Assembly (NCBI GenBank): GCA_046543235.1 | Contig: JBKGZT010000001.1 | Span: 1 to 57,662 of the forward strand | From: Candidatus Acetothermia bacterium | Lineage (GTDB): Bacteria > Bipolaricaulota > Bipolaricaulia > M55B111 | Direction of reading: 5' to 3' | Length of the DNA: 57,662 nt | Shown: one piece after another, positions 1 through 57,662 of the stretch | Layout: each line of letters opens with the position of its first letter | How positions within the stretch are numbered: the first letter of the stretch is position 1 | Program-made: the position numbers

Positions 1-3000
1 GGATCTAGGCCCGGAGACTACTGATTCCGGTTTACCGGTTAGGCCGTTTATTCTCGATTACCGGGCCTGTATAATCTAACATTGTGATCCACAGATGAAG
101 AGAACGGCCGCCCTGTTTTTGGTCTTTCTGATCGGTGTTACCCTGACGTTCACCGCGTCCTGGGCTGCCGACGAAGAAATTTCGGAGTTGTCCGAGGACG
201 CCAGCCTTGAGGAGCTATTGCGTGCCGGGGAACAAGCGGCGGCGAAGGCGAGAAACGAGAAGAGAACGGAAGAGCAATTGAGGAAATCCATCCGGATTTT
301 CGAAAGGGTTGTCGAGCTTGACCCGGACAATACTCGCGCCCTGGAGATGCTTTCTCTTGGTTACTTTACCCTTGCCGAAGCGTACCTGGAGGAAAGTCGA
401 CAAAAGTCCGCCTACGAGAAGGGTTACGAGTTCGGACTGCGGGGTTTGCGGGCACACGAGGACTTCGAGGAGATCTATCGGGAAATCGGATACCCCGCCC
501 TGAAGAAATTGCCGGACTCCGTCAAGGACGTCGAGGCGTTATTTTGGACCGGGGCAAATCTCGGACGATTGGCGGAAAGGAAAGGAGTCCCGGAAGCCCT
601 CAACGATAACGATCTTCCCGCCCTGGTGACTCTAAACAGGAGGGTTCTCGAACTTGAAGAAACCTACCTGGGGGGCGGGGCTCATCGAAACCTCGGCACG
701 ATTGGTGCCGAAGTACTCGACAAGCTTCCTCTTACTTTCTGGCAGGTTCGAAGTAACGGGTTCAGCTGGGAGAAGTCGAAGAAGCACTTCGAAAAGGCCA
801 TAGAGATCGCACCAGGTTGCCTCGAGAACTACCAGGTCTACGCAAGGTATTACGCCCTGAATAGGGGAAAGGAGGAGAAGGCTCTGGAACTACTGGACGA
901 GGTACTCGAAAGACCTCTCGGGGATAAATACCCTCTGGTCAATGAGATAGCCAAGAGGAAGGCGGAATCACTTAAAGAAAAAATTCTGGACGGGTAATGG
1001 TGCGTTTTAAGGGTTCCTCCGACCGGGAAGTGATTCTTTCGGCTTAACCGGAGGCGGGTTTCCGGTTTGACTGGTGGCGTTGAAGGACCTAACCGGGCGC
1101 TGTAGTATTATTAAAGATTTTGGCTTTCCGCTTGGGTCGGATCGCGCCGCATCGCTGTTTCGATTTCGTCAACAAATACAATAAGTTTTTAGGGGTGGAA
1201 TTTGTGGAACTAATTTTAACCGAAGAAGTTGAAGATCTGGGTGAAGTTGGAGAGACCGTGGAGGTTGCGGACGGTTACGGACGCAACTATCTGCTTCCCA
1301 AGGGATTGGCAGTGGAACCGACTACCGGTAACAGGAGACGATACGAAAAGGTTAGAAAGGAAATCAGCAAGAAAAAGGAAGAGAGGAGAGAGGGAGCCAG
1401 GGCAAGAGCGGATGAACTTGACGGACTGGAACTTACCTTTAAAAGGAAGGCCCAGGAAGAACACCACCTGTATGGTTCCGTCAGAAAGGGGGACATCGTC
1501 AGCGCCGTGGAAGAAGAAGCCGGCATTGGGATTACTCCTGAACAAGTTCAGCTGGATTCGCCGATCGAGGAACTGGGGCAATTTGGCGTCGAAGTAAGGC
1601 TCTACGAGGAAATTCACGCCAACGTAAAGGTAAACGTAGTGGAGGAGGAAGGAGAGGAAGAGGTCGAAGAAAAAGCAGAGGATTGATGGTTCTCCTCCTC
1701 ACCTGGAAGTTGAGGTCTCCCGGATCCCTGTAGAGGTAATTTAAATGGATTCTGGTCTAACCAGGGCCCTGGTGCTGGCTGTTTTTGGCCTGGCCGCTTT
1801 ATCCGCGGTTTTGCTGACCGGTGGAGAGCCGGTCGTGTCCTTGAACGGCCAGCAACTCGACGGGCTGGAGGTTATTAGCACCTCGGACGGACTCGGGGTA
1901 CCTTTGAAGGAAGCAGCTCGCCTTTTCGGGGCCAGGGTTGATTCCGGCCGGGGGGACGGCTTTATCGTCGAATGGGGGAAGGCCGACTCCTTCTACGTTG
2001 ATGAAAAAAGACTGACTCGTTCCGGAACACATAATTTTGTCGATATAGATTACCTTGCGGAGAAGCTTGGCGGGGAGGTGACGGGGAGCGATAGGTCTCT
2101 GGACGTTAGAATTCCCCCTTCTCAGTTGCTGGCGGCTTCAGTCAGAGGCGAAGAAATATCACTGAACTTCACCAAGTACTCTACTTTCACCCGGTCCAAG
2201 AGCTCGACTGAGAGAACGGAAATTAAGTTCTTCAACGCGAAGAAGGGGGACGTAAAAGAAGCCATCGATCCTTCGCCGAACTCGACCGCGATCAGGTCGG
2301 TCCATATCCAGCAAGGGGAGCAGGGGGGGCTTACGCTGGTTGTCGAACACAGTAAAGGTGTCTCCTCCAAGATAAAGACTAGCAGAGGCGAATCGGGCTT
2401 CCACTTCACGCTCGATTTCCAACCCCCGGACGATGAAGAGGCCCCCGACGGCTCCCTGGTCACGGGGAGACAGGAGTTTTCCTTCAATCGGCTGCGGGTC
2501 CCGTTCGGTGGGCGAAATCATACGATCCGATACCTCGAGGTCTCCGAGTGGAGGGAAAACTATCGCCTGCTTCCCGTGGTAGCCGGTGGGGAACTTGGAA
2601 GTGGGAGTAGTCTCTCCCGCCTGGTCAAGGATAACCTGGGCGTGGCGGGGCTAAACGCCAATTTCTTTGACACCGGATCTTATTACCCGATCGGGCTGTT
2701 GGTCAAGGACGGCAGGCTGATCTCTAAGAACTGGGGTAATAGGGCGGCCCTGGGGGTCGATTATTTCGGTCGCCTCAAGTTCATCCGACCGGAGGTCGAC
2801 CTGTTCCTGCGAACACCCGGGGGGAAAATAAATATCGATGGCCTGAACCGACCCGCAGGAGATGACGAACTGGTTGCGTATACCGCGGAGTACGGGAATG
2901 ACATACCTTCCGGTTCCTCTTCCGTGTTCGTTAAGGTTAGGGAGGGAAATTTGGTATATAGATCTTTTTCTCCTCCTTCTTCCGTGGGGAAAGGGGAGAC

Positions 3001-57000: not shown

Positions 57001-57662
57001 GTCGAGGGCGACTGGGCCTACGGTTACCTGAAGGGTGAGGCTGGAGTCCACAGGCTGGTGAGGATATCCCCGTTCGACTCGGCGGGCAGGAGACATACGT
57101 CTTTTGCTTCGGTAAACGTGACTCCCCAGTTCGAGGACGACGTAGAGGTGGATTTGGACGAAAACGACCTGAGGATCGATACCTTCCGGGCCAGCGGTGC
57201 AGGCGGGCAGCACGTTAATGTCACGGACTCGGCTGTAAGGATAACTCATGAACCTACCGGGCTGGTTGCCACCTGCCAGAACGAGCGGAGCCAGCACAAG
57301 AACAGGGAGACGGCCATGCAAATACTCCGGTCGCGGCTCTACCAACTCAAAATGGAAAAACGGGCGGAGAAAATAGAGGAAATTCAGGGAGAGCTGAAGG
57401 AAATCGAATGGGGGAGCCAGATCCGTTCTTATGTACTCCATCCTTACCAGAAGATCAAGGACCACAGAACGGAGGTAGAGGTAGGAGATACCGAATCGGT
57501 TCTGGATGGGGAGATCGACCCATTTGTCCAGGCATACCTCAAGGAGAAATAATCCGGGTGAGCCCCGGTATTATTTACCGTCGAGGGGAATTTCCGGGTC
57601 CTAATTTGAGTATTTCATTTTAACTCATTCTGCCGACCCTGTAATAAAAGAGTTGAGTTTAC

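What a model noticed while it worked through the whole genome (the two positions that open the first line are those of the whole stretch)
1..57662. Salinibacter-like acidic proteome specific to one Bipolaricaulota family
The predicted proteome is strongly acid-shifted (median pI 4.88, 75% of proteins below pI 5.5, (D+E)/(K+R) 1.49). This is the signature of salt-in osmoadaptation. The shift is shared by relatives of the same family and is absent from four other families of the class. It is a genome-wide property; the coordinates give the largest contig as an anchor.
Evidence so far: - pI statistics for 1134 proteins. - Same crude ORF method: f1 genomes have medians of 4.89, 4.98 and 5.02, against 5.97-9.13 in other families. 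- In aligned homolog pairs, G000 is the more acidic partner in 230 of 257 pairs against other families, and in 110 of 183 pairs within f1. - DNA holders are hypersaline lake and mat metagenomes. - Kdp and two Trk systems are present.
(Added by a program. Inside this text positions count along the whole contig: contig position 1 is position 1 of the stretch shown here. "Call 12" and the like, gene names such as g00115 and contig names such as C1 are that model's own, and its searches are not shown. The text may have been shortened before it was handed on; [...] marks where a part breaks off. The agent that wrote the report below was given it as the finding of a first reader that could run no searches.)

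Follow-up and report, generated by a model that had tools for sequence, protein, structure and literature searches.

The report
Acidic proteome of halophilic Bipolaricaulota
This genome and its whole family of salt-lake bacteria have proteins unusually rich in glutamate and so strongly negatively charged, a real adaptation to brine, but it was already reported in 2016 for what is very probably the same lineage (candidate division KB1).

Summary
With my own ORF calls, G000 has a median pI of 4.91, 71% of 1152 ORFs below pI 5.5, and (D+E)/(K+R) of 1.47. This holds across ORF length cut-offs and pK sets and across contigs. Wrong-frame ORFs are basic, so they cannot produce it.

In reciprocal-best-hit orthologues, G000 is the more acidic partner in 354 of 387 pairs against 15 genomes of seven other families. 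Within its own family the count is 280 of 452. The shift comes from gained Glu (+2.8%) and Asp (+1.2%), whatever the GC of the partner. Lys is not depleted.

The family is the only one in its order. One other family, f2, is intermediate.

Trk and Kdp are present, yet OtsA-type synthases and betaine transporters are conserved across the family. A mixed osmotic strategy is therefore likely.

The finding is not new. Nigro et al. 2016 (PMC4993014) described the same Salinibacter-like, Glu-biased acidic proteome in a KB1 single-cell genome and its absence from Acetothermia and MSBL6 relatives. The family carries the KB1 betaine gene block, with 7 of 7 listed neighbours present. Interest is low to moderate.

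The parts
1..57662 (.). Anchor contig (G000:C86) for a genome-wide property. It has 61 ORFs of at least 100 aa, median pI 5.61. It is less acidic than the genome as a whole (4.91) because of the ribosomal-protein cluster.
12863..14587 (-). Ribosomal protein S1 (four S1 domains), pI 4.4. Net charge is -14.1 per 100 aa in G000, -13.9 in 15 f1-like loci and -4.4 in 13 loci of other Bipolaricaulota families.
17185..18768 (+). Era-type GTPase (17185-18075, pI 4.77; other-family orthologues average 8.06) and a DeoC-family aldolase (18094-18768, pI 4.49; others average 6.96).
9094..11880 (+). Memo-like protein, YicC-like endoribonuclease and guanylate kinase. Each is more negatively charged than its orthologues in other families: -5.7 vs -1.0, -5.2 vs -2.7 and -6.0 vs -4.9 per 100 aa.
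5861..8965 (-). Dxr (pI 4.65) and FtsH (pI 4.70), both acidic housekeeping proteins.
24181..29154 (+). RNA polymerase beta' subunit (RpoC), 1657 aa, pI 4.71.
30084..32297 (+). Elongation factor G, pI 4.92. It served as the query that defined the set of 40 relatives.
29214..45506 (+). str/S10/spc/alpha-type cluster. Most ORFs here have pI 8.4-11. I take them to be ribosomal proteins from their position and size; I did not scan them against Pfam. SecY lies at 41054-42349. This block explains why the window's median pI is higher than the genome's. Inside it, the soluble enzymes Adk (42351-43004, pI 4.46) and methionine aminopeptidase (43001-43753, pI 4.52) are acidic.
45530..46489 (+). RNA polymerase alpha subunit, pI 4.30. 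It served as the query that showed the order contains only family f1.

Best explanation
Family f1 is an order-level clade of Bipolaricaulota and very probably the 'KB1' lineage. It has undergone proteome-wide acidification driven by glutamate. Soluble and exposed proteins carry about 4-6 more net negative charges per 100 residues than their orthologues in other families of the class.

The most likely function is to keep proteins soluble and active at high intracellular ionic strength. The cell would balance brine mainly with K+, taken up by duplicated Trk systems and by Kdp. This 'salt-in'-dominated strategy would be supplemented by organic solutes: a trehalose-type product of GT20 synthases, and possibly betaine.

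Shown here: the compositional shift, its distribution across relatives, and the gene inventory.

Inferred only: high cytoplasmic K+, salt dependence of the enzymes, and the relative weight of ions against organic solutes.
For: Size and breadth of the shift. Median pI is 4.91 and 71% of 1152 ORFs lie below pI 5.5. ORFs with no predicted TM segment (n=809) have median 4.86, with 78% below 5.5. ORFs with one TM segment (n=157) have median 4.61. Only ORFs with at least 4 TM segments (n=141) are basic, at 8.58.

Orthologue comparisons. G000 is more acidic in 354 of 387 pairs against seven other families. Inside the window the count is 68 of 73 pairs.

Nature of the substitutions. Over 132,278 aligned columns, G000 gains E (+2.81) and D (+1.18). 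The exchanges are asymmetric: A->E 1007 against 218 in reverse, R->E 1209 against 483, Q->E 835 against 339, K->E 1055 against 646.

Not a GC effect. The E and D gains persist against partners of GC 0.44, 0.49-0.56 and 0.63 or more. The K, R and A differences track GC instead.

Not a thermophile-type shift. The IVYWREL fraction is within 1.7 points in all three GC groups of partners.

A single protein family shows it too. For FTHFS, 23 f1-like clusters have a median net charge of -5.9 per 100 aa. The next 97 homologues have -1.2.

K+ uptake. f1 genomes show 1-4 TrkH matches, most of them two or more, against one in most other genomes. G000 has two loci. KdpA is present.

Habitat. DNA holders are labelled hypersaline lake or mat metagenomes.

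Published benchmarks. 'Salt-in' genomes have medians of 5.03 (Halobacterium NRC-1) and 5.92 (S. ruber). Solute-accumulating halophiles have 6.3-6.6 (Oren 2013, sections 4 and 7 read).

Prior work. Nigro et al. 2016 drew the same inference for KB1 (passages read).
Against: No intracellular ion data exist for this lineage.

An acidic proteome does not prove salt-in. Oren 2013 lists acidic pI peaks in Halomonas, Chromohalobacter and marine bacteria, and KCl accumulation without an acidic proteome in Halanaerobiales.

The shift lacks two classical haloarchaeal signatures. Lys is 5.2% and not depleted, and Glu exceeds Asp (E/D 1.64).

GT20 (OtsA-type) synthases occur in 18 of 18 f1 relatives, often in 2-3 copies, against 5 of 22 genomes of other families. 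OpuAC binding proteins occur in 17 of 18 f1 relatives. Capacity for organic solutes is therefore conserved and even enriched.

Trk and Kdp are widespread in non-halophiles. TrkH rang in 11 of 14 control genomes.

My same-method benchmarks were only plasmid stretches and are weak: Hfx. volcanii pHV4 5.53 and S. ruber pSR35 5.38.
Confidence: 0.6

Rival explanations
1. The proteome is acidic, but osmotic balance is achieved mainly with organic solutes ('salt-out' or a true hybrid). Trehalose-type solutes would be made by GT20 synthases, and betaine taken up by ProU/OpuA and BCCT systems. On this reading the negative surface charge serves moderately raised K-glutamate levels or externally exposed proteins, not molar KCl.
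For: GT20 is found in 18 of 18 f1 relatives plus G000, against 5 of 22 genomes elsewhere. OpuAC is found in 17 of 18 f1 relatives, with up to 8 matches per genome. G000 has a BCCT gene. Lys is retained and the bias is towards Glu. Oren 2013 documents acidic pI peaks in solute accumulators. ORFs with one TM segment, many of them probably exposed, are the most acidic class at median 4.61.
Against: Published solute accumulators have median pI 6.3-6.6. G000 has 4.91, and cytoplasmic housekeeping enzymes are shifted as well.

The betaine transporters look catabolic. They sit inside a block with two MttB-family methyltransferases, a corrinoid protein, a methyl-THF methyltransferase, FTHFS and FolD. 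The BCCT gene directly follows an MttB homologue. This fits betaine used as a substrate, as proposed for KB1.

From recall, not from any call: haloarchaea that use salt-in also widely carry trehalose synthesis and betaine uptake genes.
Confidence: 0.27
2. The shift is a by-product of composition (mutational or GC bias, or a thermophile-type enrichment of charged residues inherited from Acetothermia-like ancestors) and not an adaptation to salt.
For: Many Bipolaricaulota come from hot environments (introduction passage). E is also high (7-9%) in several non-f1 relatives. K is slightly higher in G000 than in the high-GC relatives.
Against: The E and D gains are the same against low-GC, matched-GC and high-GC partners. 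IVYWREL is within 1.7 points in all three GC groups of partners. The thermolabile residues N and S rise on average: N by 0.75 and S by 1.17 points. K+R does not rise along with D+E, so net charge changes rather than total charge. The shift coincides with hypersaline provenance.
Confidence: 0.06
3. The shift is an artefact of crude ORF calling, of a chimeric bin, or of contamination by haloarchaeal or Salinibacter DNA.
For: No gene caller was available. The genome is a 97-contig draft, 87% complete.
Against: Wrong-frame translations are basic, with median pI 8.7-11.9. The result is stable for ORF cut-offs of 60-200 aa. Of 67 contigs, 66 are acid-shifted and GC is narrow. Contamination is listed as 0. 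The shift is seen in aligned orthologue columns against relatives of the same class. It is also seen in independently assembled public relatives.
Confidence: 0.02

Closest known systems
Candidate division KB1, Orca Basin single-cell genome (Nigro et al. 2016, PMC4993014; passages and one supplement read)
   Same: Same phylum complex (OP1/KB1/Acetothermia, now Bipolaricaulota). Found only in hypersaline habitats. The pI profile is described as 'similar to S. ruber'. Glu exceeds Asp. Relatives (Ca. Acetothermum, the MSBL6 SAG) are not acid-shifted. KdpA and TrkA are listed. The ProVWX block has seven named neighbours: methyltransferase, methyl-THF:corrinoid methyltransferase, GcvP1/P2, 'MetH', FTHFS, GTP cyclohydrolase I and FolD. 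All seven are present in the f1 loci. The SAG's GC of 46.7% lies inside the f1 range of 44-54%.
   Different: That evidence came from one SAG, 25% complete, using whole-proteome histograms. Here there are 19 species-level genomes in three genera, with orthologue-level quantification, a graded series and an intermediate sister family. Identity of f1 with KB1 could not be shown by 16S. AcsB was not found in G000 itself.
Salinibacter ruber / Salinibacteraceae
   Same: Bacterial, extremely halophilic, with a strongly acid-shifted proteome. Published medians are 5.92 (Oren 2013) and 'below 5' for Salinibacteraceae-like MAGs.
   Different: S. ruber has measured molar KCl and nearly equal Asp and Glu. 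It is aerobic. f1 is Glu-biased, retains Lys, has no ion measurements, and carries the gene inventory of an anaerobic C1/betaine metabolism.
Halobacteria (e.g. Halobacterium NRC-1)
   Same: A near-unimodal acidic pI distribution and a comparable median: 5.03 in Oren 2013 against 4.91 here. The pK sets differ between the two figures.
   Different: Halobacteria are richer in Asp than in Glu. Strong Lys depletion in that group is recalled, not taken from a call. In f1, K is 5.2% and E/D is 1.64.
Salsurabacteriota (T1Sed10-126) and Bradymonadaceae CAJXPB0 MAGs (bioRxiv 10.1101/2024.03.10.584303; passages read)
   Same: Other bacterial lineages inferred from MAG pI values to have adapted independently to extreme halophily.
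   Different: They belong to different phyla. In the passages I read, that preprint names Bipolaricaulota only in its methods. Locus L110, an f1-like locus at 89% identity to the window's S1 protein, carries a record title in that study's naming style. The preprint's supplementary pI table probably covers an f1 member, but I could not read it.
Halorhodospira halophila, Halomonas elongata, Chromohalobacter salexigens, Halanaerobiales (Oren 2013, PMC3817357)
   Same: These cases show that proteome acidity and KCl accumulation are correlated but not equivalent.
   Different: Their published medians, where given, are 6.3-6.6, far less shifted than f1.
Soda-lake CPR with acidic proteomes (Vavourakis et al. 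2018, PMC6146748; passages read)
   Same: Salt-in was inferred from the pI curves of MAGs and found to be lineage-specific against non-saline relatives.
   Different: Different phyla. The Acetothermia MAGs of that paper are not discussed for pI in the passages I read.

Membership tests
Salt-in halophiles with acidic proteomes (Halobacteria / Salinibacter type) | Proteome-wide acid shift: median pI around 5 or below, with few basic proteins | tested here: met
   Median 4.91, with 71% below pI 5.5 and 15% above pI 8. The result is robust to ORF cut-off and pK set.
Salt-in halophiles with acidic proteomes (Halobacteria / Salinibacter type) | The shift affects cytoplasmic housekeeping proteins when compared with orthologues in non-halophilic relatives | tested here: met
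   G000 is more acidic in 354 of 387 RBH pairs and in 68 of 73 pairs for window genes. ORFs with no TM segment have median 4.86.
Salt-in halophiles with acidic proteomes (Halobacteria / Salinibacter type) | Molar intracellular K+/Cl- and salt-dependent enzymes | not testable with these tools
   This needs physiology or biochemistry. No culture is mentioned in the papers I read.
Salt-in halophiles with acidic proteomes (Halobacteria / Salinibacter type) | Classical composition: Asp at or above Glu, Lys depleted, lower hydrophobicity | tested here: not met
   E/D is 1.64 and K is 5.2%. Against other families K is +0.83, with only modest losses of L (-0.95) and I (-0.48). The KB1 SAG shows the same Glu bias.
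Salt-in halophiles with acidic proteomes (Halobacteria / Salinibacter type) | K+ uptake systems present | tested here: met
   Two TrkH loci and KdpA. This is not discriminating, because both are common in non-halophiles.
Salt-in halophiles with acidic proteomes (Halobacteria / Salinibacter type) | Organic osmolytes insignificant | tested here: inconclusive
   Genes for GT20 synthase, BCCT and OpuAC are present and enriched in the family. The betaine genes lie in a catabolic context. Solute pools were not measured.
Candidate division KB1 (Nigro et al. 2016) | 16S rRNA monophyly with the Kebrit Deep / Orca Basin KB1 clones | not testable with these tools
   Only partial 16S genes were found, in 2 of 19 genomes of the order. 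No KB1 reference or probe sequence could be read.
Candidate division KB1 (Nigro et al. 2016) | Belongs to the OP1/KB1/Acetothermia (Bipolaricaulota) phylum complex | tested here: met
   Titles of close public relatives read 'Candidatus Bipolaricaulota' or 'Bipolaricaulia bacterium'.
Candidate division KB1 (Nigro et al. 2016) | ProVWX block flanked by methyltransferase, methyl-THF:corrinoid methyltransferase, GcvP1/P2, B12-domain protein, FTHFS, GTP cyclohydrolase I and FolD | tested here: met
   All 7 listed neighbours lie in one block in the loci of G017, G002, G009, G015 and G004. The G001 locus is cut within the second OpuAC gene, and G018 and G014 have partial blocks. In G000 the block is split over the ends of contigs C55, C87 and C58. 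The f3 genome G020 has a version without GcvP1/P2.
Candidate division KB1 (Nigro et al. 2016) | Acidic, Glu-over-Asp proteome, unlike Acetothermia and MSBL6 relatives | tested here: met
   compared
Candidate division KB1 (Nigro et al. 2016) | Complete Wood-Ljungdahl pathway | tested here: inconclusive
   AcsB/CdhC was found in 12 of 18 f1 relatives but not in G000, which is 87% complete. FTHFS, FolD and the methyl-THF methyltransferase are present in G000.

The most novel reading that the evidence does not exclude
The clade preserves a graded series of acidification. Relative to G000, orthologues differ by -0.6 to +1.5 charges per 100 aa in genus g1, by +0.3 to +2.9 in genus g2, by +1.8 in genus g3, by +3.4 in family f2, and by +4.5 to +5.9 in family-level means of f3-f8.

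The shift is reached almost entirely by adding Glu while keeping Lys. That would make it a distinct 'Glu-type' route to a halophilic proteome, evolved in an energy-limited anaerobe that feeds on betaine and C1 compounds. It would also make the clade a natural stepwise model of how a salt-in proteome evolves from non-halophilic ancestors.
Probability: 0.3. Interest if true: 0.5.

Novelty: already known. Interest (0 to 1): 0.25.

Why it matters
Few bacterial lineages are thought to have remodelled their whole proteome for life in brine. The introduction of the 2024 preprint still calls Salinibacter 'the only described exception' among bacteria, before adding new lineages.

The KB1/Bipolaricaulota clade is another such lineage. 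It is abundant in deep-sea brines, salt lakes and mats.

- confirmation that the trait holds for a whole order-level clade of 19 species-level genomes;
- an orthologue-level effect size;
- the mode of the shift, namely Glu gain with Lys retained;
- evidence that organic-solute genes are conserved alongside it.

It is useful groundwork for enzyme studies, but it is not a discovery.

Tried and rejected
1. 16S link to KB1. Only partial 16S genes exist, in 2 of 19 genomes of the order. The KB1 FISH probe of Yakimov et al. 2013 is in a .doc supplement that cannot be read here. Nigro 2020 gives no KB1 oligonucleotide. The NCBI taxonomy places 'KB1 group' under Ca. Calescibacteriota, with environmental samples only. 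The link could not be made this way.

2. Looking for the KB1 SAG among FTHFS homologues. JGI-sourced clusters at 93-95% identity exist, but no accessions are shown. No link could be made.

3. Same-method benchmarks. The only named halophile DNA I could reach was plasmid DNA: Hfx. volcanii pHV4 100-150 kb (median 5.53) and S. ruber pSR35 (5.38), with an E. coli stretch at 6.72. These stretches are rich in IS and mobile genes, so I rely on published medians instead.

4. Papers not held: the Nature Ecol Evol version of the Danakil paper and the Namib salt-pan paper PMC10734447. The bioRxiv supplements, including the preprint's pI table, are closed.

5. Ectoine synthase (PF06339). There was no match in G000, but the family rang in none of the control genomes either, so this says nothing.

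6. No RNA holder was listed for the window stretch.

7. Earlier findings of this scan: none for this genome and none for the words searched.

8. Contamination as the cause of the one less-acidic contig, C59. Rejected, because that contig is rich in multi-TM permeases.

9. Literature searches for a published claim under the current phylum name returned no such claim in the passages read. The searches were:
- 'Bipolaricaulota' with 'isoelectric point' and 'hypersaline';
- 'Bipolaricaulota' with 'acidic proteome';
- 'Bipolaricaulota' with 'salt-in';
- 'Bipolaricaulota' with 'hypersaline' and 'osmoadaptation';
- 'Acetothermia' with 'salt-in' and 'proteome'.
The claim exists under the name KB1.
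Full report
WHAT WAS CLAIMED. The finding is a genome-wide property anchored on the largest contig. It says the predicted proteome is strongly acid-shifted, that relatives of the same family share the shift, and that other families of the class do not. It reads this as a Salinibacter-like salt-in adaptation.

CHECK OF THE OBSERVATION. G000 is a 1,321,405-base draft in 97 contigs with GC 52.7%. No gene caller was available. I therefore called the longest ATG/GTG/TTG ORFs of at least 100 aa and kept a greedy non-overlapping set of 1152 ORFs, which covers 89% of the DNA.

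Median pI is 4.91. 71.4% of ORFs lie below pI 5.5 and 15.4% above pI 8. (D+E)/(K+R) is 1.47, with D 6.2%, E 10.1%, K 5.2% and R 5.9%. Length cut-offs of 60 to 200 aa give medians of 4.89-4.97, and EMBOSS pK values give 4.63.

The window itself is less acidic (61 ORFs, median 5.61). It holds the str/S10/spc/alpha cluster of basic proteins.

ARTEFACT CONTROLS. The five alternative reading frames of the called ORFs give median pI 8.7-11.9, so spurious ORFs can only push the median up. Of 67 contigs with at least 5 ORFs, 66 have a median pI of 6 or less, range 4.46-6.46. The exception, C59, is full of multi-pass permeases. Contig GC is narrow at 0.505-0.562, and listed contamination is 0.

ORFs without a predicted TM segment (n=809) have median 4.86. 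Those with one TM segment (n=157) have 4.61. Those with at least four (n=141) have 8.58. The shift therefore lies in soluble and exposed proteins.

RELATIVES. An EF-G search gave 40 relatives: 18 in family f1 (genera g1, g2, g3) and 22 in families f2-f8 of the same class. The order holds only f1, 19 genomes counting G000. 'One family' therefore means a whole order-level clade.

I fetched 28-80 kb from each of 12 f1 genomes and 15 genomes of f2-f8. With the same crude method, f1 medians are 4.75-5.37 and the others 5.52-9.35. The highest values belong to high-GC genomes, where long spurious ORFs are expected, so I relied on orthologues instead.

Among 839 reciprocal best hits aligned over at least 60% of both proteins, G000 has the lower pI in 354 of 387 pairs against f2-f8. 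The mean difference is 4.85 charges per 100 aa, with median pI 6.32 against 4.85. Within f1 the count is 280 of 452, with a mean difference of 1.02.

Each of the seven other families shows the same sign: f2 17 of 21, f3 53 of 54, f4 118 of 127, f5 50 of 54, f6 33 of 39, f7 52 of 59 and f8 31 of 33. With G000 left out, f1 relatives are more negative than non-f1 orthologues in 75 of 92 triads.

Inside the window, 11 genes have orthologues in titled loci of other Bipolaricaulota families, and G000 is more negative in 68 of 73 pairs. Ribosomal protein S1 carries -14.1 charges per 100 aa, against -4.4 in the other families.

Across a protein database, 23 FTHFS clusters at 79-95% identity have pI 4.64-5.09 and a median net charge of -5.9 per 100 aa. 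The next 97 homologues, at 71-76% identity, have median pI 5.96 and -1.2.

TWO QUALIFICATIONS. First, acidity is graded within f1. With a larger sample, G017 (g2) differs from G000 by +2.81 charges per 100 aa over 123 pairs, and G016 (g3) by +1.84 over 62 pairs. Second, f2 is intermediate. Its one genome, G019, was sampled at 276 kb and gave 75 pairs. It differs by +3.42 with an orthologue median pI of 5.70. The family-level means of f3-f8 are +4.5 to +5.9.

WHAT CHANGED IN THE PROTEINS. Over 132,278 aligned columns against other families, G000 gains E (+2.81 points), D (+1.18) and S (+1.17). It loses A (-2.52), R (-1.42), L (-0.95) and Q (-0.79). K rises by 0.83.

The most asymmetric exchanges run towards Glu: A->E 1007 against 218 in reverse, R->E 1209 against 483, Q->E 835 against 339 and K->E 1055 against 646.

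The E and D gains are the same against partners of GC 0.44 (+2.28, +0.96), GC 0.49-0.56 (+3.19, +1.36) and GC 0.63 or more (+2.83, +1.19). The K, R and A terms follow GC instead. The IVYWREL fraction, a thermophily proxy, is within 1.7 points in all three GC groups of partners.

The shift is therefore a net gain of acidic residues, mostly Glu (E/D 1.64), with Lys retained. That differs from the Asp-rich composition reported for Halobacterium and the near-equal Asp and Glu of S. ruber.

GENES THAT BEAR ON OSMOTIC STRATEGY. G000 has KdpA (C17:3700-5394) and two TrkH loci (C68 and C77). f1 genomes show 1-4 TrkH matches, most of them two or more, where most other genomes show one. TrkH also rang in 11 of 14 control genomes, so it does not discriminate.

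G000 also has a GT20 (OtsA-type) synthase. That family is found in 18 of 18 f1 relatives, often in 2-3 copies, against 5 of 22 genomes of other families.

OpuAC binding proteins are found in 17 of 18 f1 relatives, in f2 and f3, in 4 of 7 f4 genomes, and in 0 of 13 genomes of f5-f8.

In f1 the OpuAC genes sit in a conserved block: GntR, two MttB-family methyltransferases without internal stops, ProV, ProW, two OpuAC genes, a B12-binding corrinoid protein, GcvP1, GcvP2, a pterin-binding methyltransferase, FTHFS, GTP cyclohydrolase I and FolD. In G000 the BCCT gene directly follows another MttB homologue.

That context suggests betaine is at least partly a substrate, as was proposed from 14C-betaine experiments with KB1-dominated brine enrichments.

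The gene inventory therefore allows K+ accumulation, but it equally shows conserved capacity for organic solutes.

HABITAT. Four runs hold at least 0.95 of the sampled words. All four come from one study and are labelled hypersaline lake or microbial mat metagenome, and one may be the source of the DNA. This is one study's worth of support. The titles of close public relatives also point to salt lakes.

PRIOR ART. Full-text searches under the names Bipolaricaulota and Acetothermia found no paper that claims an acidic proteome for this phylum (passages read).

In the passages I read, the 2024 Danakil preprint highlights Myxococcota CAJXPB0 and T1Sed10-126 as Salinibacteraceae-like and names Bipolaricaulota only in its methods. 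One f1-like locus (L110, 89% identity for S1) has a record title in that study's naming style. Its unread supplementary table probably lists an f1 member.

Under the older name the claim does exist. Nigro et al. 2016 (PMC4993014; passages and the supplement legend read) analysed a 25%-complete single-cell genome of candidate division KB1, a class-level group of the OP1/KB1/Acetothermia phylum known only from hypersaline sites. They reported:
- a pI distribution 'similar to S. ruber';
- Glu more enriched than Asp;
- no such shift in Ca. Acetothermum autotrophicum or an MSBL6 SAG.
They concluded that the acid bias evolved in KB1 after its split from OP1, consistent with salt-in combined with betaine uptake. 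A later paper repeats this as established.

IS f1 THE KB1 LINEAGE? I could not test 16S. Partial genes exist in only 2 of 19 genomes, and no KB1 reference or probe was readable. The indirect evidence is strong:
- the same phylum, by record titles;
- hypersaline provenance;
- the same Glu-biased shift;
- GC 46.7% for the SAG, inside the f1 range of 44-54%;
- KdpA and TrkA listed for the SAG;
- AcsB in 12 of 18 f1 relatives, although not found in G000;
- all seven neighbours that the paper lists around the SAG's ProVWX operon lie in one block in five f1 genomes, and partly in three more. The f3 genome G020 has a version without GcvP1/P2.
I put the identity at about 0.85-0.9.

MECHANISM. The best-supported reading (0.6) is adaptive acidification of soluble proteins for a cytoplasm of high ionic strength, with K+ as the main osmolyte and organic solutes as supplements. 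The composition, its distribution and the genes are shown. Ion content and salt dependence of the enzymes are inferred.

The main rival (0.27) is a hybrid or solute-dominated strategy with an acidic proteome. Oren's review warns that the two traits are not equivalent. Against the rival, published solute accumulators have median pI 6.3-6.6 while G000 has 4.9. A purely compositional cause (0.06) and an artefact (0.02) are unlikely for the reasons given above.

VERDICT. The core claim is an acidic, Salinibacter-like proteome confined to the halophilic clade of this phylum. It was published in 2016 for what is very probably the same lineage. What is added here is breadth (an order-level clade of 19 species-level genomes), effect sizes from orthologues, the mode of the shift (Glu gain with Lys retained), the within-clade gradient with an intermediate sister family, and the family-wide conservation of GT20 and betaine-catabolic genes. 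Interest is low to moderate.

Noticed in passing
window 21229-29154: rpoC (24181-29154, 1657 aa) is preceded by a UvrD/PcrA-type helicase (21229-23265), not by rpoB. The 0.9 kb between them has no ORF of 100 aa or more.
   Followed up: no
L155:4799-16952 (G017) and syntenic loci L156-L162; in G000 contigs C55:25243-28938, C87:163-4876 and C58:26216-31341: A conserved block for betaine/C1 metabolism: GntR, two non-Pyl MttB genes, ProV, ProW, two OpuAC genes, corrinoid protein, GcvP1, GcvP2, methyl-THF methyltransferase, FTHFS, GTP cyclohydrolase I, FolD. In G000 it is split over three contig ends, and the ProV, ProW and second OpuAC genes were not found.
   Followed up: partly
G000 contigs C49:1653-4672, C51:2243-3658 and C92:11371-12759: Three further MttB-family homologues lie outside the main block. 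One is directly followed by a BCCT transporter, and two lie near ABC ATPase genes. This suggests several methyltransferase systems for quaternary amines.
   Followed up: no
G019 (family f2), loci L021-L024 and L170-L179: The one f2 genome (3.7 Mb) is moderately acid-shifted: crude median pI 5.66, (D+E)/(K+R) 1.20, orthologue median 5.70. It has the best-scoring OpuAC genes of the set but no GT20 match. It may be a moderately halophilic sister lineage.
   Followed up: partly
G020 (family f3), locus L163: f3 carries the MttB-ProVW-OpuAC-corrinoid-methyltransferase block (without GcvP1/P2), a GT20 gene and AcsB. Its proteome is not acid-shifted: orthologue median pI 7.06, and G000 is more acidic in 53 of 54 pairs. 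Betaine use without acidification may exist next to f1.
   Followed up: partly
G000 contig C59: This is the only contig with a median ORF pI above 6 (6.46, 28 ORFs). Many multi-TM transporter permeases explain it, not foreign DNA.
   Followed up: yes
window 30084-32297 and its matches: Most relatives match EF-G only from query residue 24-49 onwards. Several f1 matches show a stop inside the first residues. My longest-ORF start for EF-G is therefore probably too far upstream. This is a reminder that the N-termini of the crude ORFs are unreliable.
   Followed up: no
loci L101-L131: Many public MAGs of this class are deposited under the title 'uncultured Thermotogae bacterium'. Name-based literature or database searches will therefore miss them.
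   Followed up: no
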